Assembly: GCF_055900595.2 (NCBI RefSeq)
Contig: NZ_CM148325.1
Direction: 5' to 3' (one strand)
DNA length: 64,000 nt
In this document: in pieces, positions 37,726-59,800 of the stretch
How positions within the stretch are numbered: position 1 is the first letter of the stretch
Layout of the letters: every line of letters begins with the position of its first letter
Notes under the pieces: model-generated
Databases searched by the model: none
Seen by the model: only the letters and a program-made list of their open reading frames with translations
Told to the model about the DNA's origin: nothing
Made by a program: the position numbers and the translations under genes

Positions 37726-37734
37726 GAAAGTTTC

Positions 37735-38172
37735 ATGCGTAACGGGAAATATGACGTTCTGAGTCCCCTGTATTCCGGTGAGCCGGTCAATGAGGCGGAA
37801 GTCCTGGGGGCGGCCGTCTGGCTGTGGATGCACTCCCCCCTGCATCGTGATGCGCCACTGCATACCCTGCCGGACCTGCTGCTGCCGGTGATTAAGCACC
37901 GACAGTATGTGGTGGCAACAGAGCAGGGGCGACCGGTTTTCTTCATGAGCCAGGCCTGGCTCAGCCCGGAGGCAGAGGCGCGTTATCTTACGCAGCCGGC
38001 AATTCTCATGCCTCAGTCGGACTGGAACAGCGGCGACCGGATGTGGGTCTGTGACTGGGTTGCCCCTTTTGGACACACTCCGGATATGAGTCGTCTTGTC
38101 CGGCAGGATATTTTTCCCCGTCTGTGCTGGCGTTCGCTGTACCACCGTGGGCAGCAGACCGGGTTACCCTGA
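37735..38172 (+). CDS. cdiC: HlyC/RtxC-family toxin-activating lysine acyltransferase (CdiC-type), C-terminal end replaced
   Basis: AVWLWMHSPLHRDAP and SGDRMWVCDWVAPFG closely parallel HlyC SWLWASSPLHRNWP and SGDRKWFIDWIAPFG; ORF ends inside the cdiA reading region. Confidence 0.75.
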   Translation: MRNGKYDVLSPLYSGEPVNEAEVLGAAVWLWMHSPLHRDAPLHTLPDLLLPVIKHRQYVVATEQGRPVFFMSQAWLSPEAEARYLTQPAILMPQSDWNSGDRMWVCDWVAPFGHTPDMSRLVRQDIFPRLCWRSLYHRGQQTGLP

Positions 38173-41100
38173 CGGCTGACGGACGTATTGAAAACAGTGG
38201 CAGTATCAGTGCGAAAACGGATGTGCATCTGGCGACAACCCGGGAGCTGCATAACAGTGGTTCTGTTTATGCGGGGCAGGATACGCAGATACAGAGTAAT
38301 GGTGTATTCACCCATACAGGCTCTGTGGCATCACGTCGCAACACCCGGATTCAGACAGCGCGTCTGACCGGCGGTGAGCGAAGTCTGCTCACCGCCGGGG
38401 TGAAAGATGACGGACGTCTGGCGGCAGCGGGCAACCTGACTGTCAGTACCACCGGCGAACTGGCGGCACACGGACAGGTTCTGTCCGGTGGGGACATGCA
38501 ACTGAAGGGGCAGGGGCTGGATTTAAGCAACAGCCGGATACAGGGACAACATACTGAGCTGGATGCAACCAGTGGAAATCTGTCCACACAGAATGCGCAA
38601 CTGAGTGCCGGTACGCTTTCCGCCCGGACTGCCGGGCAGTTCAGCAATAATGACGGCACGATAAATGCCGACACACTGCAGATATCAGCACAGAGCCTGT
38701 CAAACCACAGGGGTAAACTGATTCAGACGGGAACAGGGGATTTTTCGCTGAGTCTGCCGGGAAGCGTGGATAACCGGGAAGGGCTGCTTGCGGCAAATGG
38801 CGCGGTGCGTCTGGATGCACTGAGCCTTGATAATCGCAAGGGGAAAGTGCAGGCGGCGCAGTCAGGCAGTCTGCAGGTGAAGACAACCGGTGCCGTGGAT
38901 AACCAGCAGGGACGTCTGCTTGCCAGCAGTGACATCCTGATTAATACACAGGCGCTGAATAACGACAACGGACTGATTTCAGCTGCTGCCGGAACGGGCA
39001 GGATAAAAACACAGCAGTCTGTCAGCAATACGGAGGGACGAATGGAGTCCGCCGGCAGGCTGGATATTTCGGCAGGGAGTCTGAATAACCACCAGGGTAC
39101 GGTGGTGTCTGACGGGCTGTCCGTGACGCTGGATGGTGCGCTGGATAATACGTCCGGCAGACTGCTTTCACAGAAAACGCTGTCTGTGTCAGGCAGCGAA
39201 CTGGTCTCTGATGATGGTCTGATTCAGTCCGGCAGTGACATGACGCTGGATGTACAGGACGGGGTACTTAGTAACCGGAACACGAAAACACGGGGTGGTA
39301 TCAGCAGCGCCGGTACCCTGACAGTGCGGGCTGGTATGCTGAATAACCAGCAGGGATTTATGGTGGGTCAGAAGGATATGACCCTGAACGCCGGAACGCT
39401 TGATAACCGTCAGGGCGTGCTGGGGAGTCAGGCGTCATTACAGATATCGTCAGGTACGCTGATGAATCAGAAAGGTGCACTGAAGGCCGGGACGGATATG
39501 TTGCTGAGTGGTGGCGATGTCAGTAATCAGGAAGGGACGCTTGCCGCCGGCGGGGACCTGAATACTCACCTGAATGTGCTGGAAAATCAGCAGGGGACGG
39601 TGGTCAGCAACGGTAACAGCAGGCTGGATGTCACACGGTTTGATAATCAGGGCGGCAGACTGGTGGCACAGCAGTCACTGACCCTTTCCTCGACGGATAT
39701 CATCAACGATGCCAGCGGCCTGATACAGAGCGGTGCATCGCTGAATCTCCGTGCTGACACGCTGAGCAACCGTAACAGTGGTGACCGGGGCGGGGTTATC
39801 AGTCAGGGGCCGATGACGCTGAATGCCGGCACACTGGACAGCACTGCCGGTGTGCTTTTGTCGGGAGATGCTCTGTCCCTGACTGCAGGCGTGGTTAACA
39901 ATACATCCGGTCAGGTGGTGGCAAACGGTCTGCTCGGCTGGAACAGCCAGGCGCTGAACAATCAGTCAGGTCTTATTCAGGGGAAAGGCATCAGCATTAA
40001 TACCGCAGGCCAGACGCTGGATAACCGTGAGGGTGGCCGGCTGGTCAGTGAAGGTGAACTCCGTCTGCATACGGGAGGCCTGCAGAACAGCCAGGGACAG
40101 ATACAGTCTGTGGGCGACATTCTGTTCGACAGTGTACGGGGCGTTGTGGACAACGTCTCTGGTCTGATCCGCAGTGGTTCTGCCATTACGCTGAACGCCC
40201 TGCAGTTTATCAATCGCCACACGCAGAATACCGGCCAGGGGCTGGAAGCGCAGACAATACACATCACGACGCAGGACCTTGATAACCAGGAGGGCAGTAT
40301 TCTGGCAGACAGGGCGCTTACGGTTATGGCAGACAGGACGCTCAGTAATAATGATGGCGTGCTCTCTTCCGGCGCGACATTGTCTGTCAGTGGCCGTCAG
40401 CTGACGTTTTCGAACCGTGACGGCGTGGTTAAGGCCGGGCAGTCAGTATCTGTGGATGCCGGTCAGCTCGGTGGTGACGGGAAACTGCTTTCGCTGGGCG
40501 ATATGGCGCTGAAAAGTAACACAACGTTCAGTAACAGTGGTCAGACCATTGCGAACGGAAACCTTACGCTTTCCGTTAATGGCGATGTCTCTAATACCGG
40601 CAGCCTGCTGGCAGGCAGCCGGCTTGACCTGAACAGCATCCGCCTTGAAAACACAGAGAAAGGTGAAATCAGTGCCGGGCAGACCTGGCTTAACGTGACG
40701 GACACACTGCTGAACTGTGGGCTGATTGACGGGAAATATACGCATCTTCAGGCGAACACCCTGACGAATTCCGGTACCGGGCGAATCTACGGCGATGCTG
40801 TTGGTGTCAGTGCTGCCACATTTAATAATCTGGAAGAAAATGGCGTGGCGGCGACGCTGGCCGGTGAGAAAGCGAAGCGGGACCCGGCAGCACTGAATCA
40901 GGCCCGCGCAGAGCTTGAGGCAGCAGGAAAGCCGTTTACGGAACAGGATGTGGCACAGCGGGCCTACAATAACGGTATGGCGGCCTCAGGTTTTGGAACG
41001 GGAGGCAAATACCAGCAGGCGATACAGGCCGCAACGGCAGCGGTACAGGGACTGGTCGGCGGTAATCTGAGTGCAGCCCTGGCAGGTGGTGCAGCGCCGT

Positions 41101-42149
41101 ATATTGCTGAAATTATCAAACAGACCACCCCGGATGGTGCGGGACGTGTGGCAGCTCATGCAGTAGTGAATGCAGCCCTGTCTCTGGCACAGGGTAAGAA
41201 TGCTCTTGCTGGTGCCGCAGGCGCTGCCACCGGCGAGGTGGTGGGAATGATAGCCACACAGATGTACGGTAAGCCGGTGAGTGAACTGAGCGAGACAGAG
41301 AAACAGACGGTCTCCACGCTGGCAACGGTTGCTGCCGGTCTGGCCGGTGGTCTGGTGGGAGACTCAGGTGCTTCAGCGGTAGCCGGAGCACAGTCAGGTA
41401 AGACGACGGTTGAAAACAATATGCTGAACGTGATAGCCACTGAAACAGCGGCTAATACGGCAGCAGCAATAGCTGGTGCTACAGGTAATGCCAGTAGGGA
41501 TACCGGGAATGATAATAGCTGGGATATTGGTGGTGGTTGTGAAGGCTCACGGGAACAGTGTGCTGTACGTGACCCGAGTCGCGATGGTACCCGGGGACCG
41601 GGGCATGTGCTGAATGGCGACAATACAGACGAAAACAAACAGCCGAATCTGGGCAAAGACGTAGCGAGCGCTACGGATAAGGATAAAGCTGAGCTTGGTG
41701 GTGCAGGTGCTGGAACACCGGGTGGGTGGGGACCGGATAATGAAGAAAAAGCCCGTCATCAGGAGGTTCAGCAACAACGATTTGATGAACTGAGTAAAAT
41801 ATATGATAAAAGTCACCCGGTCGGAGAGTTAACAGTGGATGGGCAGACTATCAGGCAGAGTTCGGTAAGTAACCGTTATGGTACGACGAAAGTGTTTGAA
41901 AGCCAGAATCTGACGGATAAACAGATCCACAATTACGCACAACAGCTGGCAGGAGATACACCGCTGAAAGAGGTTCGGCCGGGGATCTATACTGCAAAGC
42001 TGAATAACGGAACATCGATCACGTTGCGGAATTTATCGTCGTCCCAAGAACAAACAGGCGCCAGATGGACTATTGATATTAGAGGGAATCAGCAATTGGC
42101 TGAAATTGCACATAAATACGGACGTCAGGTTGAAATTAAATTTAGGTGA
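38124..42149 (+). CDS. cdiA: CdiA contact-dependent inhibition effector, 5'-truncated (no TPS secretion domain), with VENN-delimited C-terminal toxin
   Basis: 1341 aa starting in FHA-type repeats with no signal peptide or TPS domain; pretoxin region ends ...AGAQSGKTTVENN (VENN at 41409..41420); about 240-aa CdiA-CT. Confidence 0.85.
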   Translation: MLAFAVPPWAADRVTLTADGRIENSGSISAKTDVHLATTRELHNSGSVYAGQDTQIQSNGVFTHTGSVASRRNTRIQTARLTGGERSLLTAGVKDDGRLAAAGNLTVSTTGELAAHGQVLSGGDMQLKGQGLDLSNSRIQGQHTELDATSGNLSTQNAQLSAGTLSARTAGQFSNNDGTINADTLQISAQSLSNHRGKLIQTGTGDFSLSLPGSVDNREGLLAANGAVRLDALSLDNRKGKVQAAQSGSLQVKTTGAVDNQQGRLLASSDILINTQALNNDNGLISAAAGTGRIKTQQSVSNTEGRMESAGRLDISAGSLNNHQGTVVSDGLSVTLDGALDNTSGRLLSQKTLSVSGSELVSDDGLIQSGSDMTLDVQDGVLSNRNTKTRGGISSAGTLTVRAGMLNNQQGFMVGQKDMTLNAGTLDNRQGVLGSQASLQISSGTLMNQKGALKAGTDMLLSGGDVSNQEGTLAAGGDLNTHLNVLENQQGTVVSNGNSRLDVTRFDNQGGRLVAQQSLTLSSTDIINDASGLIQSGASLNLRADTLSNRNSGDRGGVISQGPMTLNAGTLDSTAGVLLSGDALSLTAGVVNNTSGQVVANGLLGWNSQALNNQSGLIQGKGISINTAGQTLDNREGGRLVSEGELRLHTGGLQNSQGQIQSVGDILFDSVRGVVDNVSGLIRSGSAITLNALQFINRHTQNTGQGLEAQTIHITTQDLDNQEGSILADRALTVMADRTLSNNDGVLSSGATLSVSGRQLTFSNRDGVVKAGQSVSVDAGQLGGDGKLLSLGDMALKSNTTFSNSGQTIANGNLTLSVNGDVSNTGSLLAGSRLDLNSIRLENTEKGEISAGQTWLNVTDTLLNCGLIDGKYTHLQANTLTNSGTGRIYGDAVGVSAATFNNLEENGVAATLAGEKAKRDPAALNQARAELEAAGKPFTEQDVAQRAYNNGMAASGFGTGGKYQQAIQAATAAVQGLVGGNLSAALAGGAAPYIAEIIKQTTPDGAGRVAAHAVVNAALSLAQGKNALAGAAGAATGEVVGMIATQMYGKPVSELSETEKQTVSTLATVAAGLAGGLVGDSGASAVAGAQSGKTTVENNMLNVIATETAANTAAAIAGATGNASRDTGNDNSWDIGGGCEGSREQCAVRDPSRDGTRGPGHVLNGDNTDENKQPNLGKDVASATDKDKAELGGAGAGTPGGWGPDNEEKARHQEVQQQRFDELSKIYDKSHPVGELTVDGQTIRQSSVSNRYGTTKVFESQNLTDKQIHNYAQQLAGDTPLKEVRPGIYTAKLNNGTSITLRNLSSSQEQTGARWTIDIRGNQQLAEIAHKYGRQVEIKFR

Positions 42150-43708: not shown

Positions 43709-44875
43709 GTGGCGGTCAGGACGCTGATAAACCTTAATGAGCGCTTTATTGATGCAGTATCGAATCCGGCAGGTATTATTGGTTTGTTTTTTGGTTTGCT
43801 TACCGTATTTGCAATTTTATTTCGTTTTTTTATTTACCGGAGACTCAGAAAGAAAACAGCAGCATTTGAGCAGGCCGTTTCAGAGCTGGTTCAGAGAGAA
43901 CGGGATTTTAATGAAACTGTCAATGCCGCTATAGCCCGGGGAATACGACAGGAAAAGGAGCAGCTTGCCAGACGTCGTGAGGAATTTCATACCACCAGAA
44001 AGAAGGCCGGCCGTGCAATGCAGCGGATTGTTGATTCTGCCTGGAAATTTAAGGCGAAGACTCTGCTGGCTGGTGTAACGATTAATAACTGGCAAAGCAA
44101 ATATGACCAGCTTCGTAAGGAAAGAGAGGCTTACGCTGCTGTCAGTGAGAAAATTGCCTTTCTTAACCTGGAAGATAATTCTGACTGGGAGAGTGTCAGG
44201 CAACAGTTTCTGGACAAAGTGGCATTGCTGGAAAAAGCGCAGGAAGAAAAGGAATATCAGGCAGAGCTTAAGCGTCAGATGCGTGAAGAAAAAGAGCGTC
44301 AGGATGAACTTGACCGGCGCCAGCGGGAAGCGGAAGAGGAAGAACGGCGTCTTGCTGAGCAGCAGAAACTGATTGAGGAGGCGCTGCGCGCAGCAGAAGG
44401 GGCTCACAGGGAGGAGTTAGAGAAACAACGCCTGGAGCTGGAACAGAAAATTCAGGAAGCGCATGCGCAGTATGAACGTGCTAAATCCATGGCTCAGCTT
44501 ACGAAACAGGGGCATGTTTATATCATTTCGAATATTGGTTCGTTTGGTGAGGATGTCTTTAAAATTGGCATGACCCGACGGCTGGAACCCATGGACAGGG
44601 TCAAAGAGTTAAGTGGTGCTTCTGTTCCGTTTGATTTTGATGTTCACGCCATGATTTCCTGTGATGATGCGCCCGCGCTGGAAAAAACACTTCATGACAG
44701 TCTGGAAAAATACCGCATCAACAGGATTAACCTGCGTAAAGAATTTTTCCGCGTGAAGCTTGAGAAAATCATTAATGAAGTGGAGCGTCACCACGGGCAG
44801 GTGGAATATGTGGCTGACCCGGCAGCACTGCAGTATCTGCAGAGTCTGGAGTGCGCGGAAAATGAAGCTGCCTGA
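43709..44875 (+). CDS. Membrane-anchored coiled-coil protein with C-terminal T5orf172/GIY-YIG-like domain (DUF4041-type architecture suspected)
   Basis: N-terminal TM helix GIIGLFFGLLTVFAILFRFFIY; long charged coiled coil; C-terminal GHVYIISNIGSFGEDVFKIGMTRRLEPMDRVKELS...FDFDVHAMI typical of T5orf172. Confidence 0.65.
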   Translation: MAVRTLINLNERFIDAVSNPAGIIGLFFGLLTVFAILFRFFIYRRLRKKTAAFEQAVSELVQRERDFNETVNAAIARGIRQEKEQLARRREEFHTTRKKAGRAMQRIVDSAWKFKAKTLLAGVTINNWQSKYDQLRKEREAYAAVSEKIAFLNLEDNSDWESVRQQFLDKVALLEKAQEEKEYQAELKRQMREEKERQDELDRRQREAEEEERRLAEQQKLIEEALRAAEGAHREELEKQRLELEQKIQEAHAQYERAKSMAQLTKQGHVYIISNIGSFGEDVFKIGMTRRLEPMDRVKELSGASVPFDFDVHAMISCDDAPALEKTLHDSLEKYRINRINLRKEFFRVKLEKIINEVERHHGQVEYVADPAALQYLQSLECAENEAA

Positions 44876-45068: not shown

Positions 45069-46856
<1,788 letters not shown>

Positions 46857-47269: not shown

Positions 47270-48643
47270 TTGAATCTGCCGATGACTTCTGAAGTGAAAC
47301 TGAAAACCGGTGGTGACCCCCGGTCATTACCGGATTATGCTGCCCTGCGTGATGAAATCAGCAAACTGACCCACCCGGCACGCCCGGATGTGGACTGGCG
47401 TCATGTGGAGACGCTCTGCCTGCGTCTGTATGAACACAATGGCGTGGAATTACAGACAGCATCCTGGTACACCATCGCCCGGATGCATACAACAGGGTTA
47501 AGTGGCCTGAATGAAGGGCTGGCTCTGATTGTGGCGCTGACCCGGCATCACTGGTCAGTGATGTGGCCGCTGAATACACACGCCCGGCTGGAAATTATTA
47601 CCGGTCTGTTCAACCGTCTGCAAAAAACGCTCCGGGCCATGCCACCGGACGACCGTGACAACCTGCCCCTGCTGTATCAGACCGAAACATTTCTGAAGGC
47701 ACTGAGTGACACACTGGCCCGGCACGAACTTAAACAGAGCAGTAAAGTGGCTTTACCGGAAGCCATGGTGAAGGGATATATCACCCGTCTGGAAAATCAG
47801 CCAGTGCAGGACGAAGCGTCGTCTCCGGTAACCCTTCCTGCTCAGGCACTCCGGTCTGATGCTCCGGATGTACAGGGACATCAGCCCCTGCCGCACTCCC
47901 GTCTGGTGTATGTTGTTTCTGAAACAAAAACAGAGCCCACATCCTCCCTTCAAAACTCCCCGCCCACGTTTCTGAAACCGTTTGTGACTGGTGTCTGTGC
48001 GGCATTGCTGGCGGTCTGCGTGGCCATTCCGGGATGGCAGTATCTGGCACAGCCATCACCGGCAGAGCAGCAACTCAGGGCGCTGCTGACACCACCACCG
48101 GATGTGCTTTCAGCAGACCAGATGACACAGCTCAGCAGAACACCCTCACTGTTAAATCATGCGTCAGAGTGGATAACCCTTTCCGGTCAACAGATAACGC
48201 GACTGACAGAATTACCCCTGGCATACAACCTGCAGTGCAGTGCGCAGCTACTGCAGCAACTGATGGTACTTTTCCCCGACAATCCCCGGGTACAGGAAAT
48301 GGTGGATAACTGGCAGAAGAGCGTAAGGAGTCGTGCGCTCCCGGAAGAGGCGATGACGGGCTGGAATGAAGGCATGACCCGCTTACAGCAGCTGGCTGAA
48401 CGCCTGAACCGTCTGGATGAACAGCGGGGAAAATACATGACGGTCAGTGAACTGAAAACGGAGGTGTTTGGCATCATGCAGGCTTTTAACCGGCACATAC
48501 CGGCAGAAGAGCGGTTACGTCGCTATGATGAAGCCCGTAACCAGAATGGCAGTGAACAGCAACAAAAACAGATGGAAAATGCCCTGATGGAACTGTTGAA
48601 CCGCTACTATTTTTTAACACGGAATAGTTGTGTGGATATATGA
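47270..48643 (+). CDS. ImpA N-terminal domain protein with central TM helix (TssA/VasL-like)
   Basis: N-terminus GGDPRSLPDYAALRDEISKL...DVDWRHVETLCLRLY...LNEGLALIVALTRHHW resembles ImpA_N domain; TM segment FVTGVCAALLAVCVAI. Confidence 0.55.
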   Translation: MNLPMTSEVKLKTGGDPRSLPDYAALRDEISKLTHPARPDVDWRHVETLCLRLYEHNGVELQTASWYTIARMHTTGLSGLNEGLALIVALTRHHWSVMWPLNTHARLEIITGLFNRLQKTLRAMPPDDRDNLPLLYQTETFLKALSDTLARHELKQSSKVALPEAMVKGYITRLENQPVQDEASSPVTLPAQALRSDAPDVQGHQPLPHSRLVYVVSETKTEPTSSLQNSPPTFLKPFVTGVCAALLAVCVAIPGWQYLAQPSPAEQQLRALLTPPPDVLSADQMTQLSRTPSLLNHASEWITLSGQQITRLTELPLAYNLQCSAQLLQQLMVLFPDNPRVQEMVDNWQKSVRSRALPEEAMTGWNEGMTRLQQLAERLNRLDEQRGKYMTVSELKTEVFGIMQAFNRHIPAEERLRRYDEARNQNGSEQQQKQMENALMELLNRYYFLTRNSCVDI

Positions 48644-48784
48644 GAAGATATTTAACCTTTTGCAAGGTAATTTCCCTAAGGTGCGATAGGGTACAGAATA
48701 TTCTTTATTCTAGGATGGTTTTATTTTGTATGTTGGCAATTTCAATGAATATTTTACATTTAAGTATGGAATAAGGAGTGTTGA

Positions 48785-50491
48785 ATGAAGCTTTCATCAT
48801 TTTTTGTGGAAAACTTTAAATGTATCGGTAGAGAGGTACACATTAAAATAGATGATATTATTATTTTAATTGGGCAGAATAATGTAGGAAAATCAACAAT
48901 CCTTGATGCTTATGAGAAATTTGCTGCTCTTGGAAAAGAAAAGGTCTTAGATATTAGCCATTTTCATAATGAAGATGTTTCAAAGCCAGTGATCATGACA
49001 GGAGTATTTACAGATATTACTGTAGAAGATGAAACGGCAATAGGAAAAAAATGGAAGCACAATGATCCAGTTTATGGTGAGTGTATTAAGTTCAGATGGG
49101 TATGGAATGCACCCGGTGAGTCGGCTAAAAAAGAGGCATTTGATCCAACTAAAGGACAAGGTGAATTTGTAGCTGGTGGCTTGGGCGGGTTTGATAGCAT
49201 AATTAAAAGCCGTATTCCTAAGCCACTTCGAATTAAACCTGATGATTCAGTCCTGAAAACACAGGAGCTTATAATCGAAATATTGAAAAGTAATGTGAAG
49301 GAATACCTCAGTAATGGGCCTGATTCCAAGGCTGATGTGATAGCCAAAATTGAATCCCTAACAAGCGCTCTGGTTGAGTCATCTAAAGCAGAATTTGATC
49401 GATTGCTTGGTCGTATAACAGACAATATAGAATCGATTTTTCCAGGGGTTATTATGGAATTGGTTCCTCAGTCGAAAGATCCTATTGATGAGAAGATTAT
49501 CGCTTCAGCATCCTATTTAAAGGTTCGAAACCCGACTAGTCGTTCAACTATGCTTGAACTCCAAGGAACCGGGCTTAAGCGTTCTTTACTGTGGTCTGCA
49601 TTGTCAGTACTTTCGCAAGAAGGAAAAAGCAAAAAAGGTGATGTTGTCAAGGAGTGTAATATCCTGCTTATAGATGAGCCAGAGGCTTTTTTGCATCCAC
49701 CAACAATCCGTGGCGCACGAGAGGCTTTGTATACATTTGCAGCCAATAATCCTGGTTGGCAGGTAATGGCTACCACGCACTCTCCAGTATTCATCGATTT
49801 GTCGAAAGATCATACGACAATTATTCGGGTTGATAAAGATAGCCAGAACAAATACATCTCAACAAACGATATTGGGTTTGATAAGGATGAGAAAGTCAAT
49901 CTTAAAATTGTTCGAGCATGTAATCCAATGGTAAATGAGTTTTTTTTCTATAATAAAATTGTTCTTGTGGAGGGCCCTACTGAAAAAATTGTACTGAATC
50001 ATCTTCAGGATACTCTGGGGATAGAGATGCATGTAATCGATTGTCTTGGTAAAGGTAATATACCTATGTTTGTTAAAATTCTTAATCAGTTCGATGTTCC
50101 TTATGTTGTTATTCATGATTCTGACTCACCTAAAATCCGTCGTAAAGGAAAATATGTGAACAACGGGATGTGGACTATAAATACTTTGATTAGAAATGAA
50201 GTTGCTAAATCAAAAAAAGGACGTATTTTTACTCAGGTGCCGCACTTTGAAGGCGAATTTTTTGGCGAAACTCTTACCTCTGGTAAGGTATCAAATGTGC
50301 TCGAGGTTCTCCAGAACGTTACGGCTGAAGAATACACTCGCTTAATAAGCGTTTATAGCCGTATTTTAAATGACGCAGAAGAATCATTATTTACTGGGAC
50401 ACTTGAGTCTTTTATGGCTAAAATTAATGCATATACGGCAGATAAAACTGCATTAACAGATCCAGAGTTATGGGGATTATCGGGTTTATAA
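48785..50491 (+). CDS. OLD-family ATPase-Toprim nuclease (class 1 OLD-like, stand-alone)
   Basis: 568 aa; Walker A GQNNVGKST; ABC-type ATPase core (LLIDEPEAFLHP); C-terminal Toprim (VLVEGPTEKIVL ... VVIHDSDSP); gene is AT-rich. Confidence 0.8.
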   Translation: MKLSSFFVENFKCIGREVHIKIDDIIILIGQNNVGKSTILDAYEKFAALGKEKVLDISHFHNEDVSKPVIMTGVFTDITVEDETAIGKKWKHNDPVYGECIKFRWVWNAPGESAKKEAFDPTKGQGEFVAGGLGGFDSIIKSRIPKPLRIKPDDSVLKTQELIIEILKSNVKEYLSNGPDSKADVIAKIESLTSALVESSKAEFDRLLGRITDNIESIFPGVIMELVPQSKDPIDEKIIASASYLKVRNPTSRSTMLELQGTGLKRSLLWSALSVLSQEGKSKKGDVVKECNILLIDEPEAFLHPPTIRGAREALYTFAANNPGWQVMATTHSPVFIDLSKDHTTIIRVDKDSQNKYISTNDIGFDKDEKVNLKIVRACNPMVNEFFFYNKIVLVEGPTEKIVLNHLQDTLGIEMHVIDCLGKGNIPMFVKILNQFDVPYVVIHDSDSPKIRRKGKYVNNGMWTINTLIRNEVAKSKKGRIFTQVPHFEGEFFGETLTSGKVSNVLEVLQNVTAEEYTRLISVYSRILNDAEESLFTGTLESFMAKINAYTADKTALTDPELWGLSGL

Positions 50492-51507
50492 AATTCTCCA
50501 TAAGGGATTTTAAATCAATGAGTTTATTTTTATGCAGATAGAGTCTTTGAGTGAATTGAAATATTAGTACTGTCGACCTGCTGTTTTTGTAATATGATGG
50601 ATTTGGTAGGGGGATGTAATTTTTGTGATAGTGGTTAATATTAAAATGTTTTAGTGTGGATTTTTAGAGTAAAATGATTTAAGTAGTGTTCATATAAAGC
50701 AAGTTTGTTTTTTTTGGGGGGGTGATATTGATAGTAATGTGTGATATATTTTATTGAAATTATTTGTTGTGTGTTGTGAGAATAACAGAGTGTGATTGAT
50801 AAGTATGACGTAAAGAATGAATTATTGGTTCGCTGTATCAGAACAGGTAGGTTATGTTTTATTGACGTTATTTCTAACGAAACTAATTAACTCTGAGTTG
50901 CTTTTGCGTTATCGTATATTTGATCGTTTTTCGTTATAAGAGAAAAGTTTTAGATATATAATTCTTTGAGTGATGTTGAAGTTGGTTTTATCTGTCAGGA
51001 AGTATTGACTATATATGAACATACTCAACGATGCTGCAACGAAAAGAAAATTACAACTGTCCAGTTAGGCAGGAAACTTAATGGCAGGTATGCAGATATG
51101 ATTGCTGAGTTAAAAGAAACAGTAGAGATGAGGGGGGAGGGGTAATTTCTTTTGAGATGGATATATTGAATTCTTTTAATGATGCGGATGAATATCACGG
51201 ACGTGTTAAACTGGAATTGGATATACCTGCTTCAGATATATTATATTGCCATGATTTTATTGATTCAAAACATGTAAACTCCTGGCTGGTTGAACCACAT
51301 GAGTGGGTGGTTATTAATCGTTCTCTTACTGGGATTGTTACAGTGCCAGTATCAGCAATAAAAATCTCTTATTGAAAAAATTATGTATGTAACTTACTTT
51401 ATATATATAAGGGTAAAAACAGTCCCGGTAATAATTAAATATTATTTAATGTTTATTGCTATGTATTGGAGATATAAGCGGGTTTCTTTTGCATAAAGTA
51501 AAAATAA

Positions 51508-52438
51508 ATGAATGATAATTTTTTAACGGAGAAAGTCCTTACTGGAGAGAATGTTCTGCGTGCAGCAATTGCTCGTATTGAGTGGGTTTTTGAAACATTT
51601 CCATCAGTTTGTCTCTCTTTTTCCGGTGGTAAAGATTCCACCGTGCTTTTCCATCTTTTGGCTGATGTGGCCCGCAGGAAAAAACGTCGTTTCTCTGTAC
51701 TGTTCATTGACTGGGAGGCTCAGTACCAGTGCACCATTGAACATATTCAGAAGATGCGGGAAATGTACCATGATGTGACGGATACCTTTTACTGGGTGGC
51801 ACTTCCCCTGACCACGGTAAACGGTGTCTCGCAGTTTCAACCGGAATGGATATGCTGGGAGTCGGGCGTGAAGTGGGTTCGCCAGCCACCGGAGGGGGCC
51901 ATTACAGATATGGCGTATTTTCCCTTTTACCGGTATGCCATGACGTTTGAAGAATTTGTTCCGGCATTTTCTTCCTGGTTTGCAGACAATAAATGTGGTG
52001 TGGCAGTACTGACCGGTGTCCGTGCGGATGAGTCCCTTAACCGGTTCATGGGACTGGTATCCCAGCGCAAACTGAGATACGCCGATGATAAGCCCTGGAC
52101 CACGGCATCGCCTGAAGGGTTTTACTACACCATGTATCCGCTGTATGACTGGAAAACTCGTGATATCTGGATATATCACACCAGAACCCGTGCCATCTAC
52201 AATCCCCTGTATGATCTGATGTACCGTGCCGGCGTACCGTTACGCAACATGCGTGTCTGTGAACCTTTTGGTCCTGAACAACGTAAGGGACTGTGGCTTT
52301 ACCATGTTCTGGAGCCGGATACCTGGGCCAGGATGTGTGAGCGGGTGTCAGGGGCTGCCAGCGGGGCACTTTATGCCAATGAAAGCGGTGCTTATTTTGC
52401 CCTGCGTAAGCGCATATCAAAACCAGCCCATCATACCT
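51508..52438 (+). pseudogene. PAPS reductase-like (phosphoadenosine phosphosulfate reductase family, IbrA-like) gene, 3' end truncated by IS911
   Basis: PP-loop motif SFSGGKDSTVLFHLL; ORF runs from native sequence into IS911 left end at 52439. Confidence 0.7.
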
Positions 52439-52510
52439 TGAAGTGGTTTACTGAATTTGGCCACCTGAACAGAGGTGATATGCTCACCTCAGAACAACAC
52501 AGGTGCCATA

Positions 52511-53658
<1,148 letters not shown>

Positions 53659-53802
53659 CTCGGTGGCCAGTTTTTGTTGACCACTTCATATCTGTAAGAC
53701 TCTCATAAAGAATGATTTCTGGTGCCGGACCCTCTCCTTCAGTCCTAACAAACCCCGGCACTATGAACGTTATCTGCAGCGTATGAAAGAAAGGAGGAAG
53801 GA

Positions 53803-54441
53803 ATGGGGGATTCTGTGACAGCGGAGGTACTGAGTGACATGATTCGTCAGTACTTCAGCCAGGAACGACCAGAAGAAGAGACCATACAGGCTCTGAATCA
53901 TCTGCGCAGGGTGCTTCATGAGGTCAGTCCATTTGCACAGGAGCCTGTGGACTGTGTGCTGTGGGTGAAAGCAGATGAGGTGGTGGCCAATGATTATAAT
54001 CCTAATGTCATGGCGCCGGGTGAGAAAAAACTGCTGAAACATTCGCTGGAGCAGGACGGGTTCACGCAGCCTGTGGTTGTCTCGGAAGAGAAGGAGCATT
54101 ATCTGGTGGTGGATGGTTTTCATCGTCAGTTACTGGGCAGGGAAGCAGGTACGGGAAAACGTCTGAAGGGCTGGTTGCCAGTGACCTGTATTAATCCGGA
54201 GAGAAAGGGACAGGCCGCACGCATTGCCGCGACCATTCGACATAACCGGGCCAGGGGAAAACACCAGATAACTTCAATGTCTGATATTGTCAGGGATCTT
54301 TCACGTCTGGGCTGGACGGATGAACGCATTGGCATGGAGCTGGGTATGGACCAGGATGAAGTTCTCAGGTTGAAACAGATTAGCGGGCTGACGGAGCTGT
54401 TTCAGGAAGAGGATTTCAGCCCGGCATGGACGGTTCGCTGA
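53803..54441 (+). CDS. ParB-like nuclease domain protein (IbrB-like)
   Basis: 212 aa; ParB N-terminal-like segment (VVANDYNPNVMAPGEKKLLKHSLEQDGFTQPVVV...YLVVDGFHR). Confidence 0.65.
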   Translation: MGDSVTAEVLSDMIRQYFSQERPEEETIQALNHLRRVLHEVSPFAQEPVDCVLWVKADEVVANDYNPNVMAPGEKKLLKHSLEQDGFTQPVVVSEEKEHYLVVDGFHRQLLGREAGTGKRLKGWLPVTCINPERKGQAARIAATIRHNRARGKHQITSMSDIVRDLSRLGWTDERIGMELGMDQDEVLRLKQISGLTELFQEEDFSPAWTVR

Positions 54442-54480: not shown

Positions 54481-54789
54481 TTGAGCAGGAAAAATAGTAC
54501 CCCGGAAGTCGTGGAAGACATGGTTGCACAGACGCTGGAGGCGGCGGGTTGCTGGCGCAGAGCTTCTGCCCGCTGGCTTTTTGTTATGGGAAATGTTGAA
54601 TGTACAGAAGCACAACGGGAGTGGTTGTTGTTACGCAGGAATTATTGCCTGGCGCAGATATCGTCCCCGCCGCTACCTGAAAAGCTGGATATCAGCGAGG
54701 TGGCGAAAGCTGCAGATGCCACGCTGAGGCGAATGGGGATTGCCAGTCCGTCTGGGGAGGTATTCAGAAAAGGTACACTGGTCTGTTGA
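54481..54789 (+). CDS. Hypothetical protein
   Basis: ORF only. Confidence 0.35.
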   Translation: MSRKNSTPEVVEDMVAQTLEAAGCWRRASARWLFVMGNVECTEAQREWLLLRRNYCLAQISSPPLPEKLDISEVAKAADATLRRMGIASPSGEVFRKGTLVC

Positions 54790-54809: not shown

Positions 54810-55454
54810 ATGATGAAGAAAGTAATGGTGGACAGCGTATCAGTGCCATGGCAGCTTTTGTGCGATGAACATGGTTTTACCCGGGAGCACCACAATCAGT
54901 TGAAGAAGTTCAGCCCGGAGGCATTACGTGAAATTATTGCTGAAATAGCCTGCTGCCATCCATCAACCAGTGTATTGCTCAGGAATAAGTGGCTGACACC
55001 GCCGGAGGATATTCCGGAGCAGGTTACCCGTGAATACGAACGAAGAATACAGAACTGTCCATCGTTCAGGAGCGAGAAGGAAGCGGAATCCTGGTTAAAT
55101 GAACTGTTTTTTGCTGTGATTGCTCCGCTATACCGTGTTGCCCCCGAACAAACAGAACAGGTTGAGTCCTTTGTTCTGCAGCTTATTGCCGAGCAGGAGC
55201 GGGTTTGGGAGCTTATTTTAACCAATGATGGTTATTCATGGCATTGCGCACTTTATGATATATTATTTCATCTGGTTTTACGAAATATGGAAGACCAGCC
55301 TGAACATCAGAGACAGCGAATAACAAAAATACTTAATGAGTCCGATACAAAACGGGTTGCAGAAGAGATTAAATTTCGGATTCAATATCTTCAGGATGAA
55401 GAACAAAAAAGAGTTTTAAGTGAACTGGTAAATGTCCTGACTTCAAAAAGATAA
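54810..55454 (+). CDS. Hypothetical protein
   Basis: 214-aa ORF with plausible RBS spacing; no family recognised. Confidence 0.45.
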   Translation: MMKKVMVDSVSVPWQLLCDEHGFTREHHNQLKKFSPEALREIIAEIACCHPSTSVLLRNKWLTPPEDIPEQVTREYERRIQNCPSFRSEKEAESWLNELFFAVIAPLYRVAPEQTEQVESFVLQLIAEQERVWELILTNDGYSWHCALYDILFHLVLRNMEDQPEHQRQRITKILNESDTKRVAEEIKFRIQYLQDEEQKRVLSELVNVLTSKR

Positions 55455-56876: not shown

Positions 56877-59800
56877 ATGAAATTCACTGAAGATACTCGG
56901 GTAAAAATCCCCGTAATCCTCCACCTGATACGGTTGGGATACTACTACCTGTCCCTTAAAGAACAACGCTGGGACAAAGAAACCAACATCTTCCCTGACC
57001 TCTTTACTGCTGCGATTGGCCGAATAAACCCCGGACTTGCGCCAGACGACATCGGACGCCTGTTAAAAGACCTCACGCTGCTTCTCGACAACGATGATCT
57101 GGGCCGCGCCTTCTTCGAAAAACTCAGTGATCGTTCCGGTATCAAACTGATCGACTTTGATAACTTCAACAACAACAGTTTCCATGTCGTCACCGAATTG
57201 ACCTGCGAAAACGATGATGAAGAATTCCGCCCGGACATCACGCTGCTGATCAACGGCATGCCGCTAATCTTTATCGAAGTGAAAAAACCCAATAATCGGG
57301 AAGGCATCGTCGCAGAACGCAATCGCATCAACGAACGCTTTAAAAACCCCAAATTCAAACGCTTCGCCAACATCACCCAGTTCATGATCTTCTCCAATAA
57401 CATGGAGTATGACGACAGCGACCCGGAGCCGATTCAAGGGGCATTCTACGCCAGCAGCTCTTACAGCAACCCGGTATTCAACTACTTCCGCGAAGAAGAA
57501 CTCTTCAACCTGACCAACTTACTGAAACCGCTGTCAGACGAAACCGAGATCGCCGTCCTGAAAGACAACAACCTGGAAGTCATCCGTACCAACCCGGAAT
57601 TCCAGACCAACAAAGATCACAACTGCCCGACTAACCGCCTTTGCACCGCGCTGTTGAGCCGGGATCGGCTGGCATTTATTCTGCGCTATGCGCTGGTGTA
57701 TGTCGCCGAACCGGGCGGAATCCAGAAACACATCATGCGCTACCCGCAGCTCTTCGCCACTAAAGCAATCGAGCGCAAACTGAACGCTGGTGTGAAGAAA
57801 GGCATCATCTGGCACACCCAGGGCAGCGGGAAAACCGCGCTGGCTTACTACAACGTGCGCTTCCTGACAGATTACTTCCAGAATCAGCAGGTGATCCCCA
57901 AATTCTACTTTATTGTTGACCGTCTGGATCTGCTCCAGCAGGCGCAGCGCGAGTTCACCGCCCGTGGCTTAATCGTTCACCTTATCGACTCCCGCGAAGC
58001 CTTCACTCGCGATATCAAAGCGACGCAGGCGCTGCACAACCACCACGGCAAAGCGGAAATCACCGTCGTCAACATCCAGAAATTCCGCGATGACCCGGAC
58101 GTCGTCACTACCAAAGACTACGATATCAACATCCAGCGCGTGTACTTCCTCGATGAAGTCCACCGCAGCTACAACCCCAAAGGAAGTTTCCTGGCGAACT
58201 TAAGCCAGTCGGACACCAACGCCATCAAAATTGGCCTGACCGGTACGCCTCTGCTGGGCACAGACTACAACTCCCGCGACCTCTTCGGCGACTACATCCA
58301 CAAATACTACTACAACGCCTCCATTGCCGACGGCTACACGCTGCGCCTGATCCGCGAAGAGATCGCCACCAACTACCGAATGATCCTGCAACAGGCGCTA
58401 AAAGAGGTGGAAGTCAGAATGGGCGATGTGGATCGCAAAGACATCTACGCCCATCCCAGCTTCGTCAAGCCGATGTTGAACTACATCATCACCGACTTTG
58501 CCAAAAGCCGGGGCGCGCTGAATGATGACACCATCGGTGGCATGGTGATTTGTGACAGCTCTGAACAGGCCAAACAGATGTTTGAGATATTCAACACTGA
58601 CTACGCCGAATCGCCCACCACCGTTTACCACATCCACACCAAAGAAACGCGGAAAATCAAACGCGCCGCCCTGATCCTACACGACGTCGGCAGCAAGCAG
58701 GAACGCAAAGAGTGGGTGGAGCAATTCAAAGCGGGAGAGATTGACCTGCTGTTCGTCTACAACATGTTGCTCACTGGCTTTGACGCCAAACGGCTAAAAA
58801 AACTCTACCTCGGGCGGGTGATCAGAAAGCACAACCTGCTCCAGGCGCTGACCCGCGTCAACCGAACCTACAACCACTTCCGCTACGGCTATGTGGTGGA
58901 CTTCGCCGACATCCGCCAGGAATTTGACGCCACCAACAAAGCCTACTTCGAAGAGCTACAGGCTGAACTGGGCGATGAAATGGAGCATTACTCCCGCCTG
59001 TTCAAATCAGCGGATGAGATCCGCGAAGAAATCGAACATATCAAAGACGTTCTGTTTAGCTTTGATACCGAAAACGCGGAAATCTTCACTGACCAGATAA
59101 ACCAGATCCAGGACCGGGAAACCGCGCTGGTACTGAAGAACGCGCTGACCGACGCCCGCAGCCTTTACAACCTGATTCGCCTCCAGGGCAACACAGAGTT
59201 TCTCCAGGCGCTGGATTTCAACAAACTCAACATCCTCTACCGCGAAGCCAGCCGCCGCCTCGACTTACTCAACCTGAAAGCGGATCTGGTACAGGGCGTT
59301 GACCTCTCCGGCCTGCTGAACCGGGCGCTGGAAGAGGTGATCTTTGAATTCCATAAAGTGGGCGAAGAAGAGCTGGTACTGGCCGACGAGCTGAAAGAGA
59401 CGCTGCGCCGCACCCGCGAAGCGCTGGCCGCCAACTTCGACCAGCAGGACCCGCAGTTCGTCAGCCTGAAAGACGAACTGGAGCGTCTGTTTAAGAAAAA
59501 GAAACTCAGCGAAGTCACCCAGCAAGAAATGGTTGCGAATATCGGCACACTCAATAAAATTCATGGCCGCATCAAAGAGCTAAACCGCCAAAACAACCTG
59601 CTGCGCCAGAAATACCGGGGCGACGTGAAATACGCGCGTACCCACAAACGCCTGCGTGAGCGCGGCGGCCTGAGCGAGCCGGAGCGTAAAATCTTCGAAG
59701 CACTGCTTAGCGTTAAGCTGGATGCAGATGAAAAAGTGCTGAACAACAGCCAGATACTGAACAATGAAAGCTATTTTGAGCGGCATATGGAGTCATGTGT

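What the first reader, a model, noticed from the sequence alone, without database searches (positions are those of the whole stretch)
48785..50491. Stand-alone OLD-family ATPase-Toprim nuclease on AT-rich DNA
The domain order matches P2 Old / class 1 OLD proteins. No helicase gene follows it, so it is not a canonical Gabija pair. Low GC relative to neighbours suggests separate acquisition. Such proteins are abortive-infection or anti-phage factors.
Basis: partly seen in the sequence, partly recalled or inferred. Interest (0 to 1): 0.55.

Follow-up and report, generated by a model that had tools for sequence, protein, structure and literature searches.

The report
Stand-alone OLD anti-phage nuclease gene
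This is an intact single-gene "OLD" ATPase-nuclease of the kind bacteria and prophages use to abort phage infection; here it is a rare piece of foreign, AT-rich DNA in a swap-slot of an E. coli genomic island, which makes it an ordinary but well-supported new member of a known defence family.

Summary
Window 48785-50491 (+) is an intact 568-aa ORF with an ABC-type ATPase (AAA_15), then an OLD-type Toprim domain. All ATPase and two-metal nuclease residues are invariant in its family. Its best matches are the PADLOC 'Old' profile (1.5e-78) and the class 1 Ts OLD structure. GajA, AriA/AriAB and retron-Eco8 models score far lower, and there is no DUF4435. No helicase, reverse transcriptase, RNA or other conserved ORF accompanies it, here or in about 10 other lineages, so it meets the definition of class 1. 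The upstream NERD-UvrD helicase also occurs in strains without this gene. GC is 0.376 against about 0.5 in the flanks. The 2.2-kb cargo fills a slot between a VasL-like gene and hyp214-ibrAB. Other E. coli carry there a different OLD (29% identical, 133 of 5,426 genomes), a Mokosh-like remnant, or nothing. This allele occurs in 1 of 5,426 genomes. It belongs to a conserved, experimentally uncharacterised clade of about 562 aa found beside integrases and in prophages, satellites and defence islands. The clade is 25% identical to P2 Old and under purifying selection (dN/dS 0.08). The most likely role is ATP-dependent abortive-infection nuclease; trigger and target (DNA nicking or tRNA cleavage) are unknown. 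Verdict: new member of a known kind, moderate-to-low interest.

The parts
48785..50491 (+). OLD-family class 1 ATPase-Toprim nuclease gene (568 aa), intact
   Evidence: ORF; Pfam AAA_15 plus PF20469; PADLOC Old 1.5e-78; PHROG 4747, the P2 Old phrog, 3e-89; Ts OLD 6p74 is the top hit by sequence profile and by Foldseek; dN/dS 0.078 against the Salmonella copy.
48785..49798 (+). ABC-type ATPase region (aa 1-338): Walker A G30-x4-G35-K36-S37-T38, signature Q260-G261-x-G263, Walker B D297-E298 and H-loop H332. A low-confidence helical insert (aa ~156-218) lies where Ts OLD has its dimerisation domain.
   Evidence: All motif residues are invariant in 36 of 36 family members. AF2 secondary structure and pLDDT. 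Domain layout of Ts OLD from PMC7049728. Calling the insert a dimerisation domain is an inference.
49931..50491 (+). Toprim nuclease region with its C-terminal extension (aa ~383-568). Metal A ligands: E396, D445, D447. Metal B ligands: E400, H487 (N in 10 of 36 members), E489. K501 is an invariant candidate transition-state lysine. The last ~55 aa are family-specific helices.
   Evidence: Alignments to Ts OLD mapped onto the Ts catalytic residues E377/D431/D433, D381/S478/E480 and R487. Column counts. pLDDT is 85-92 over aa 390-550. The region cannot be aligned to P2 Old beyond aa 448.
48609..50800 (.). Low-GC cargo segment (about 2.2 kb, GC 0.357) that fills the variable slot: 176 bp of upstream spacer, the OLD gene, and about 310 bp of downstream AT-rich spacer
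   Evidence: blastn boundaries against strains 405, M8 and O157:H7. tblastn of the intact hyp214 protein places the start of the pseudogene near 50801. Homology to the Salmonella copy covers only 48770-50494.
48733..48760 (+). Candidate sigma-70 promoter (TTGGCA, 16 nt, TACATT; 9 of 12 matches), about 25 nt upstream of the start. Weak evidence.
   Evidence: Consensus scan. The number of such sites in the region (13) equals the shuffle expectation (12.5), so this is a candidate only.
47270..48643 (+). Left flank of the slot: ImpA/VasL-like ORF. Not part of the OLD unit.
   Evidence: Shared at 90-94% identity with strains that lack this OLD. Annotated as ImpA-N/POTRA/VasL fragments.
50801..51375 (+). 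Right flank of the slot: frameshifted remnant of a 214-aa hypothetical gene that is intact in other strains. Not part of the OLD unit.
   Evidence: tblastn splits it into two frames (aa 4-136 at 54% identity, aa 127-214 at 86%). PGAP marks it 'frameshifted' in SC418. It is intact in strains 405, M8, ST69 and 504239.

Best explanation
This is a horizontally acquired single-gene class 1 OLD (overcoming lysogenization defect) nuclease that acts as an anti-phage, probably abortive-infection, effector.

Proposed mechanism, with the basis for each step:
1. The protein oligomerises through a helical insert in its ABC ATPase head. This is inferred from Ts OLD.
2. In uninfected cells the nuclease is held inactive. 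This is inferred from the gene being kept intact under purifying selection.
3. Infection provides a cue, which is unknown. For P2 Old the cue is loss of RecBCD activity; for Vc OLD it is independent of RecBCD.
4. ATP binding and hydrolysis at the invariant Walker A, Walker B, signature and H-loop motifs license the Toprim domain.
5. The Toprim domain cuts a double-stranded nucleic-acid substrate by two-metal catalysis (E396/D445/D447, E400/H487/E489, and probably K501).
6. The substrate is either replicating phage DNA, which would be nicked as by Vc OLD, or host tRNA anticodon stems, as cut by P2 Old. Either way phage production stops.

What is shown here: domain architecture, intact catalytic residues, absence of partner genes, foreign origin, hotspot location, purifying selection, and the mobile-element and defence-island contexts of homologs. 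What is inferred: the defence function itself, the trigger, the substrate and the oligomeric state.

The gene arrived as the cargo of a variable slot in a pheV-type island that also carries PD-Lambda-1, a NERD-UvrD candidate and a type I R-M system.
For: - Architecture and ranking: Pfam AAA_15 plus OLD-like_TOPRIM. PADLOC Old 1.5e-78, against AriA 7e-32 and GajA 7e-26. As a control, P2 Old scores 712 bits on the same profile and four family members score 227-279 bits. PHROG 4747 is shared with P2 Old. hhalign against P2 Old gives probability 99.5% over 416 columns. Ts OLD 6p74 is the best hit by sequence profile (7.5e-27) and by Foldseek (3e-21).
- Catalytic residues are invariant in 36 of 36 members and map onto the residues validated by mutation in Ts OLD.
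- Stand-alone status: homologs in Salmonella, Photorhabdus, Burkholderia, Pseudomonas, Leptospira, Flavobacteriales, Yersinia, Serratia and a Rhizobium phage share no neighbouring gene. An all-against-all search of flank ORFs found none conserved. No Rfam or retron RNA is nearby.
- Mobile and defence context: homologs lie beside integrases, in a P2-like prophage, in a P4-like satellite cargo position, next to a Tn3 resolvase, and in a Leptospira island with HNH, MazE-PIN and an MmeI-like R-M. Window neighbours are PD-Lambda-1, NERD+UvrD and type I R-M. The slot holds an alternative OLD or a Mokosh-like remnant in other strains.
- Foreign origin: GC is 0.376 against about 0.5, and homolog genes have lower GC than their flanks in all eight lineages examined.
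- Selection: dN/dS is 0.078.
- Function of relatives: P2 OLD, Vc OLD and YbjD all give anti-phage phenotypes (PMC12445682, PMC12392090, PMC13261556).
Against: - No experiment exists for this clade. Identity to any characterised OLD is 25% or less.
- The three characterised class 1 enzymes differ in trigger, substrate and even in whether they need Toprim: YbjD's Toprim domain is dispensable. Mechanism therefore cannot be transferred with confidence.
- The last ~120 residues do not align with P2 Old.
- No promoter or terminator signal rises above chance, so expression is unproven.
- An archaeal OLD (Cran1) has a role outside defence, in the cell cycle (listing).
- The AF2 model has only moderate confidence overall (pLDDT 76), and the putative dimerisation insert scores below 60.
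Confidence: 0.8

Rival explanations
1. It is the GajA half of a split or non-canonical Gabija-like system (class 2 OLD) that works with the NERD+UvrD helicase encoded 1.9 kb upstream (45069-46856).
For: The upstream protein carries a UvrD-type helicase core that hits GajB profiles at about 1e-21. GajA structures are the second-best structural matches. Both genes are on the same strand in one defence cluster.
Against: The helicase's best match is a different stand-alone candidate family, NERD+UvrD C3a187 (2.5e-139, full length). It is upstream rather than immediately downstream, and two genes separate it from OLD. The same helicase occurs in strain 405 with an empty slot, and in M8 and 504239 with a different OLD allele. 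None of the homolog loci has a helicase next to OLD. GajA profiles score 89 bits or less, against 263 for Old.
Confidence: 0.04
2. It is a fused PARIS (AriA-AriB, class 4) or a retron-associated (class 3) effector that has lost or hidden its partner.
For: The AriA profile hits at 6.6e-32 and AriAB at 1.4e-20. The retron Eco8 effector hits at 1e-10. Eco8 structures appear among the Foldseek matches.
Against: There is no DUF4435 match, the domain that defines AriB (definition in PMC9122126). The Eco8 model scores 41 bits against a curated cut-off of 250. There is no reverse-transcriptase ORF, no Rfam hit of any kind near the gene, and no RT in any homolog locus.
Confidence: 0.02
3. It is one component of a larger, undescribed system together with the downstream hyp214-IbrA (PAPS-reductase-like)-IbrB (ParB-like) module. 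For example, OLD would be the nuclease arm and IbrAB a modification or sensing arm.
For: Two unrelated OLD alleles, and a Mokosh-like ATPase in O157:H7, all sit immediately upstream of the same ibrAB module on the same strand. IbrA has a weak BrxP-like PAPS-reductase match (2.7e-7).
Against: In strain 405 the slot is empty and ibrAB is intact. hyp214 occurs in 463 genomes while the two OLD alleles account for only 134. The second ibrAB locus near cobUST has no ATPase upstream. None of about 10 homolog loci outside E. coli has ibrAB or hyp214. In this window hyp214 is a pseudogene and ibrA is split by ISEc52, yet OLD remains intact.
Confidence: 0.05
4. It is a selfish, addiction-type or otherwise non-defence gene (DNA repair, mobile-element maintenance, or a Cran1-like cell-cycle role), or a functionally silent passenger, with no anti-phage activity.
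For: No experimental data exist for this clade. Archaeal Cran1 shows that OLD ATPases can have non-defence roles. Allele B in the same slot is frequently truncated or frameshifted, which shows that OLD genes at this locus are dispensable. No clear promoter was found.
Against: The gene's rarity (1 of 5,426 genomes) and patchy cross-phylum distribution on mobile elements argue against a housekeeping role. Strong purifying selection and complete conservation of the catalytic residues argue against a dead passenger. It is embedded among recognised defence genes and in P2/P4 cargo positions known to hold anti-phage systems.
Confidence: 0.09

Closest known systems
P2 Old (bacteriophage P2 old gene product; archetypal class 1 OLD)
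   Same: A single polypeptide with ABC ATPase then Toprim, of similar length (586 vs 568 aa). The two are collinear over aa 1-447 (25% identity, hhalign probability 99.5%) and share the same PADLOC and PHROG family as best hit. Both are carried by mobile DNA as lysogenic-conversion or defence cargo. The 603-aa sister branch sits in P2-like prophage and P4-like satellite cargo positions.
   Different: Identity is only about 25%. The C-terminal ~120 residues cannot be aligned. The PADLOC Old profile is matched only over positions 2-455 of 578, at 263 bits against 712 for P2 Old. The gene here is chromosomal, in a genomic island rather than a prophage, and has no tin-like neighbour. Whether it senses RecBCD loss or cuts tRNA-Thr anticodon stems (PMC12445682) is untested.
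Thermus scotoductus OLD (PDB 6p74; structural reference for class 1)
   Same: It is the best match among solved structures by sequence profile (7.5e-27) and by Foldseek (3e-21). The metal A triad, two of the three metal B ligands, and the layout of the Toprim C-terminal extension all align.
   Different: Foldseek identity is 18%. The S478 position is His or Asn here. The R487 column is not conserved, and an invariant Lys (K501) lies five residues further on. About 55 extra C-terminal residues are present. Ts OLD has no known biological role.
Vibrio cholerae Vc OLD (class 1; DNA nickase, RecBCD-independent, inhibited by ICP1 Oad1)
   Same: Both are bacterial, stand-alone, island-borne OLD genes next to other defence genes. 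Both have an E/E/(N or H)-type metal B triad rather than D/E/S (for Vc OLD).
   Different: I could not retrieve the Vc OLD sequence, so no direct comparison was made. The closest Vibrio hits are about 25% identical. Its clade in the Patel & Seed tree was not determined.
E. coli allele-B OLD in the same slot (626 aa; WP_225526271.1 type, e.g. strains 504239 and CFT073)
   Same: It occupies the same insertion point between the VasL-like gene and hyp214-ibrAB. It is stand-alone with PADLOC Old as best hit (227 bits) and shares the C-terminal W-T-x-N-x-x-I-R-N-E and P-x-F-E motifs.
   Different: It is 29% identical and has a ~60-aa insertion before Walker B. It is far commoner (133 of 5,426 genomes against 1) and is often truncated or frameshifted.
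GajA (class 2 OLD, Gabija) and E. coli YbjD/OldB
   Same: Same ATPase-Toprim architecture and two-metal Toprim site.
   Different: GajA needs an adjacent GajB helicase, which is absent here. YbjD is a core-genome gene whose best profile matches are GajA-type (267 bits), not Old (84 bits). It aligns to this protein only over aa 293-493 at 24% identity.

Membership tests
OLD family nucleases (all classes) | N-terminal ABC-type ATPase domain with intact Walker A, Walker B, signature and H-loop motifs | tested here: met
   Pfam AAA_15/AAA_21. K36/S37, D297/E298, Q260-G261-x-G263 and H332 are invariant in 36 of 36 members.
OLD family nucleases (all classes) | C-terminal OLD-type Toprim domain carrying the acidic two-metal site | tested here: met
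   PF20469 at 5.5e-15. E396, E400, D445, D447 and E489 are invariant and align to Ts E377, D381, D431, D433 and E480.
OLD family nucleases (all classes) | Metal-dependent nuclease and ATPase activity | not testable with these tools
   Needs purified protein.
Class 1 OLD | Both domains in one polypeptide encoded by a single isolated gene | tested here: met
   One 568-aa ORF. No conserved neighbour in about 10 lineages.
Class 1 OLD | [quoted passage not shown] | tested here: met
   Downstream lie a pseudogene and ibrA. The upstream NERD-UvrD gene is present independently of OLD.
Class 1 OLD | No reverse transcriptase or ncRNA (retron) flanking the gene | tested here: met
   No RT ORF. No Rfam match near the gene.
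Class 1 OLD | Conserved Arg or Lys taking the role of Ts R487 / Bp K562 | tested here: inconclusive
   The column aligned to R487 is variable (E/T/S/F/D). An invariant K501 aligns to Ts K492, five residues away.
Class 1 OLD | Anti-phage phenotype dependent on ATPase and Toprim residues | not testable with these tools
   Requires phage challenge of a clone and point mutants.
Class 2 OLD / Gabija GajA | Tandem gajB helicase gene; longer protein with a C-terminal helical domain carrying K562 | tested here: not met
   No adjacent helicase. GajA profiles score 89 bits or less against 263 for Old.
Class 3 OLD / retron Eco8 effector | Retron RT and msr-msd ncRNA adjacent; NCBIfam NF038234 score of at least 250 bits | tested here: not met
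   41 bits. No RT or RNA.
Class 4 OLD / PARIS (AriA+AriB or the fusion) | DUF4435-type Toprim (AriB), either separate or fused | tested here: not met
   No DUF4435 hit even at E of 10 or less. AriAB scores 72 bits. Definition taken from PMC9122126.
P2 Old orthologous group | Full-length similarity to P2 Old, including the C-terminal ~130 residues | tested here: not met
   Alignment stops at aa 448 here / 456 in P2 Old. The profile is covered only over positions 2-455 of 578.

The most novel reading that the evidence does not exclude
The ~562-aa clade this gene belongs to may be a mechanistically distinct type of class 1 OLD. It has its own conserved C-terminal module (invariant W463, N466, Q484, P486-x-F488-E489, K501) and a His/Asn metal-B ligand. 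That could give it a trigger and substrate different from both P2 Old (loss of RecBCD leading to tRNA anticodon-stem cleavage) and Vc OLD (DNA nicking). Separately, the junction between the VasL-like gene and hyp214-ibrAB may be a previously undescribed E. coli defence hotspot where divergent OLD alleles replace one another.
Probability: 0.25. Interest if true: 0.55.

Novelty: new member of a known kind. Interest (0 to 1): 0.35.

Why it matters
Class 1 OLD nucleases are the oldest known phage-exclusion factors, yet they are still poorly understood. Only P2 Old, Vc OLD and YbjD have in vivo data, and those three disagree on trigger, substrate and even on whether Toprim is needed.

This gene represents a widespread, well-conserved and untested clade: hundreds of members at 50% identity or more across Proteobacteria, Leptospira, Bacteroidota and a Rhizobium phage. 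It sits in an E. coli background where the BASEL and classical phage panels and recBC genetics are immediately available.

The natural "allele series" at one slot (allele A, allele B, a Mokosh-like remnant, empty) would let isogenic comparisons show what each OLD type protects against. None of this changes how the family is understood; it adds a tractable member and a small piece of island biology.

Tried and rejected
1. Gabija pairing with the upstream NERD-UvrD helicase. Rejected: the helicase belongs to another full-length candidate family and occurs without this OLD.
2. PARIS fusion or retron effector. Rejected on the absence of DUF4435, a sub-threshold NF038234 score, and no RT or RNA.
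3. Functional coupling to hyp214/ibrAB. Examined because three different ATPase cargos sit upstream of ibrAB. Disfavoured by the empty slot in strain 405, the cobUST-linked ibrAB paralog, homolog contexts elsewhere, and the decay of hyp214 and ibrA in this window.
4. A hidden small partner ORF. An all-against-all blastp of every stop-to-stop segment of at least 35 aa within 2.5 kb either side, across 13 loci, found only integrases, one weak HNH match and the shared island flanks.
5. T6SS effector or immunity role. Considered because of the adjacent ImpA/VasL remnant and the Hcp/VgrG genes near the Pseudomonas homolog. Rejected: there is no secretion-associated domain, and the association is not conserved.
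6. Promoter and terminator scan. Uninformative: counts equal the shuffle expectation, and no terminator follows the stop codon.
7. Rfam scan at permissive E-values. It returned only two sub-threshold chance hits.
8. Literature search for ibrA/ibrB. It returned only unrelated 'iBRB' retina papers. Two other searches failed on term format.
9. Direct comparison with Vc OLD.
10. hyp214 and the 214-aa ORF at 54810-55454. They are not paralogs (E = 0.13).
Full report
OBSERVATION. The window contains an ATG-initiated ORF at 48785-50491 on the + strand, encoding 568 aa. An AAGGAG ribosome-binding site lies about 6 nt upstream of the start. GC falls to 0.29-0.40 between 48500 and 51500, against 0.50-0.55 on either side. 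The gene itself is 0.376 GC (GC3 0.297), whereas the neighbouring genes are 0.48-0.54. Pfam finds AAA_15 (aa 1-78 and 149-337), AAA_21, and OLD-like_TOPRIM PF20469 (aa 387-447, 5.5e-15).

CLASSIFICATION.
- In PADLOC the best model is 'Old' (1.5e-78, 263 bits, aa 1-454). It is far ahead of AriA (110 bits), GajA models (89 bits or less), AriAB (72 bits) and ATPase-Toprim_I-B (64 bits).
- No NCBIfam model passes its cut-off. The retron-Eco8 effector model gives 41 bits against a required 250.
- There is no DUF4435 hit, the domain that defines PARIS AriB (PMC9122126).
- As controls, P2 Old scores 712 bits full-length on the PADLOC Old model, and three diverse members of this protein's family score 246-279 bits over profile positions 2-455. 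E. coli YbjD scores best on a GajA-type profile (267 bits) and only 84 bits on Old.
- PHROG 4747, the family of P2 Old, is also this protein's best PHROG (3e-89).
- BLASTP and hhalign against P2 Old give a collinear alignment over aa 1-447 (25-26% identity, probability 99.5%), which stops just after the DxD motif.
- Among solved structures the class 1 Thermus scotoductus OLD (6p74) is the top hit by single sequence (1.7e-17), by family profile (7.5e-27, now reaching Ts residue 504) and by Foldseek on an AF2 model (3e-21). GajA and retron-Eco8 effectors follow.

CATALYTIC MACHINERY. I aligned 36 family members at 48-83% identity (A1). Invariant residues include:
- Walker A: G30...G35-K36-S37-T38.
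- Signature motif: Q260-G261-x-G263.
- Walker B: D297-E298.
- H-loop: H332.
- Toprim: E396-G-x-T-E400 and H444-D445-x-D447.
- Further on: E489 and K501.

The residues proven by mutagenesis in Ts OLD are metal A E377/D431/D433, metal B D381/S478/E480, and R487 (PMC7049728). The alignments map these onto E396/D445/D447 and E400/H487/E489. Position 487 is His in 26 members and Asn in 10 of the 36. According to PMC12392090, Vc OLD has an E/E/N metal-B triad, so this family looks more like Vc OLD than Ts OLD at that site. The column aligned to R487 is variable. The invariant K501, which aligns to Ts K492, is my candidate for that role, but this is an inference.

The AF2 model (pLDDT 76, pTM 0.68) is confident over the Toprim and C-terminal helices (85-92). 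It is weak over helices 156-218, which lie where Ts OLD has its dimerisation insert.

IS IT REALLY STAND-ALONE? Class 1 is defined by context: a single isolated gene with no downstream UvrD-like helicase and no retron RT or ncRNA (PMC7049728; PMC12392090).
- In the window, the gene is followed by about 310 bp of AT-rich spacer, a frameshifted remnant of a 214-aa hypothetical gene, and ibrA split by an ISEc52-type IS.
- A NERD+UvrD protein is encoded 1.9 kb upstream (45069-46856). However, it matches a separate full-length candidate family (C3a187, 2.5e-139). It is also present in strain 405, whose slot is empty, and in strains carrying a different OLD.
- Rfam finds nothing relevant, and the window has no tRNA.
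- I inspected homolog loci in Salmonella, Photorhabdus, Burkholderia stagnalis (two contexts), Pseudomonas aeruginosa (two), Leptospira, a Flavobacteriales genome, Yersinia ruckeri, Serratia marcescens and Rhizobium phage RHph_Y3_56_1. No neighbouring gene is shared.
- An all-against-all blastp of every stop-to-stop segment of at least 35 aa within 2.5 kb either side found nothing conserved apart from integrases, one weak HNH match and the shared E. coli island flanks.

The class 1 criteria that can be tested computationally are therefore met.

ORIGIN AND LOCUS.
- Only 1 of 5,426 complete E. coli genomes carries the gene: SC418, from sediment, with one nucleotide and one amino-acid difference (G412R). 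In that genome it lies in an island at a tRNA-Phe gene next to yqgA/speC.
- blastn against related islands maps the foreign segment to about 48609-50800.
- The left flank (VasL-like ORF) and the right flank (hyp214, ibrA, ibrB, perC) are shared with other strains, which differ in what they hold between them:

| Strain(s) | Slot content |
|---|---|
| window, SC418 | allele A OLD, 568 aa, intact |
| 504239 | allele B OLD, intact 626 aa, 29% identical to A, PADLOC Old 227 bits |
| M8 | allele B, frameshifted |
| ST69 | allele B, cut by an IS |
| O157:H7 | frameshifted gene with MkoA/MkoC (Mokosh)-like helicase segments |
| 405 | nothing |

- Allele B occurs in 133 of 5,426 genomes, including CFT073, and is often 5'-truncated. 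The right-flank gene hyp214 occurs in 463 genomes.
- The slot therefore behaves as a defence hotspot, and the window's allele is its rare occupant.
- The surrounding cluster reinforces this: PD-Lambda-1 (43709-44875), NERD+UvrD, and a type I R-M system (56877-62774). SC418 carries Shango (SngABC) where the window has the R-M system.
- The recurring position upstream of ibrAB raised the idea of a joint system. I consider that unlikely, because ibrAB exists with an empty slot, a second ibrAB locus near cobUST has no ATPase upstream, homologs elsewhere lack ibrAB, and in this window both hyp214 and ibrA are broken while OLD is intact.

THE FAMILY.
- The large protein database returned 778 hits at E below 1e-10. 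The closest are 84% (Salmonella), 79% (Photorhabdus) and 77% (Yersinia).
- Beyond those is a large set of proteins of about 562 aa, 50-55% identical over their full length, in Burkholderiales, Pseudomonas, Rhizobium, Leptospira and Flavobacteriales.
- A 603-aa branch (47-48% identical) occurs in Yersinia, Serratia and E. coli.
- Contexts are typically mobile or defence-related: beside integrases, next to a Tn3 resolvase, at the edge of DUF927/P4-like elements, just after int in a P2-like prophage (Y. ruckeri), in the cargo position of a P4-like satellite at ssrA (Serratia), next to int/attL in a temperate Rhizobium phage, and in a Leptospira island with HNH, MazE-PIN and an MmeI-like enzyme.
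- The gene's GC is below that of its flanks in all eight lineages examined, by as much as 17-18 points in Burkholderia and Pseudomonas.
- DNA similarity to the Salmonella copy covers only 48770-50494, so the ORF moves essentially alone.
- dN/dS against Salmonella is 0.078, indicating strong purifying selection.

MECHANISM. Shown here: intact ATPase and two-metal Toprim sites, single-gene organisation, mobile and defence context, and selective constraint. Inferred from characterised relatives: an infection cue licenses ATP-dependent activation of the nuclease, which then cuts a double-stranded nucleic acid and aborts infection.

The characterised class 1 enzymes diverge from one another:
- P2 Old is activated by loss of RecBCD and cuts tRNA anticodon stems; its ATPase is required (PMC12445682).
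- Vc OLD is a DNA nickase, acts independently of RecBCD, blocks phage replication, and needs its Walker A/B and DxD residues (PMC12392090).
- YbjD does not even need its Toprim domain (PMC13261556).

With 25% identity or less to each of these, and a family-specific C-terminus, I cannot tell which substrate applies here. The His/Asn metal-B ligand leans slightly towards the Vc-type. My estimates are about 0.8 for an anti-phage defence role. Given a defence role, they are roughly 0.45 for a DNA target, 0.3 for a tRNA/RNA target, and the remainder for other or both.

COMPARISON AND NOVELTY. The protein meets every testable criterion for the OLD family and for class 1. It fails the criteria for classes 2, 3 and 4, and it is not an ortholog of P2 Old because the C-terminus does not align. 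PGAP already annotates it as 'ATP-dependent nuclease', and current defence finders would call it Old. It is therefore a new member of a known kind: an uncharacterised but widespread clade of class 1 OLD.

The modest extras are the hotspot with alternating OLD alleles and the clade-specific C-terminal module. Interest is moderate to low. A specialist would not be surprised, but the gene offers a convenient E. coli entry point into an under-studied class.

LIMITS.
- There is no experimental evidence for expression or function.
- The promoter scan is at chance level.
- The survey of hotspot cargo rests on a handful of inspected genomes plus three count searches, not on an exhaustive census.

Noticed in passing
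window 43709-44875 (+): A 388-aa protein with a coiled-coil N-terminal half and a GIY-YIG/T5orf172-type C-terminus matches the PADLOC PD-Lambda-1 model (5.5e-89). This is a second single-gene defence candidate in the same cluster, annotated 'GIY-YIG nuclease family protein' in related genomes.
   Followed up: partly
window 45069-46856 (+): A 595-aa NERD plus UvrD-like helicase, annotated '3'-5' exonuclease', matches the PADLOC candidate family C3a187 over its full length (2.5e-139). It is conserved in islands with and without OLD, so it is an independent candidate defence gene and not a GajB partner.
   Followed up: partly
window 51508-53800 (ibrA) with the IS at about 52439-53700: The ibrA gene (PAPS-reductase-like) is interrupted by an IS3-family element of ISEc52/IS911 type (orfA 52475-52813, orfB 52840-53658). 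ibrA is intact in SC418 and in strains 405 and 504239. ibrB (53803-54441) and perC (54481-54789) follow.
   Followed up: partly
window 50801-51375 (+): Frameshifted remnant of a 214-aa hypothetical gene that is intact in 400-plus E. coli genomes, always directly upstream of ibrA. It has no Pfam or PADLOC match and its function is unknown. Its N-terminal half is much more diverged here (54% aa identity) than its C-terminal half (86%).
   Followed up: partly
window 56877-62774 (+): A complete type I restriction-modification operon (hsdR 1014 aa, hsdM 544 aa, hsdS 410 aa), 100% identical to human E. coli isolates such as strain 504239. In SC418 this position instead holds a Shango system (SngABC) on the opposite strand, so it is a second variable defence slot in the same island.
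   Followed up: partly
L004 6408-9087 (E. coli O157:H7 ECP17-46), the equivalent of the OLD slot: O157:H7 carries a frameshifted ~2.7-kb 'AAA domain' gene here. Its fragments match the Mokosh MkoA/MkoC and PDC-S37 helicase models (1e-16 to 6e-32), which makes it a decayed defence gene of a third type at the same locus.
   Followed up: partly
L022 4330-6210 (E. coli 504239); also CFT073 and 131 other genomes: A second stand-alone OLD allele (626 aa, 29% identical, with a ~60-aa insert before Walker B) sits in the same slot. In most genomes the match starts at nt 304 of the gene, which suggests a common 5'-truncated form. Whether the truncated form is functional is unknown.
   Followed up: partly
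window ~25137-42149: The left part of the window carries an S6-family (SPATE) autotransporter gene (25137-29012) and a cdiB/cdiA-type two-partner secretion pair (35986-37725 and 38124-42149), according to the annotation of the best-matching genomes. This is typical pheV-type pathogenicity-island content. SC418 has a T6SS cluster to the left of the defence genes instead, so the island is a mosaic.
   Followed up: no
L016 5001-6699 (Rhizobium phage RHph_Y3_56_1): The phage homolog (52% identical) is annotated as two CDSs (1230 nt and 468 nt) that split the gene just before the Toprim core. This is either a genuine frameshift or stop, or a sequencing error. The identical arrangement appears in the sister phage RHph_Y3_1.
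   Followed up: no
window 50700-50716: A T8-G7 homopolymer tract (ttttttttggggggg) lies in the AT-rich spacer downstream of OLD, inside the cargo segment. It is a potential slippage site or part of a decayed element. No function is evident.
   Followed up: no
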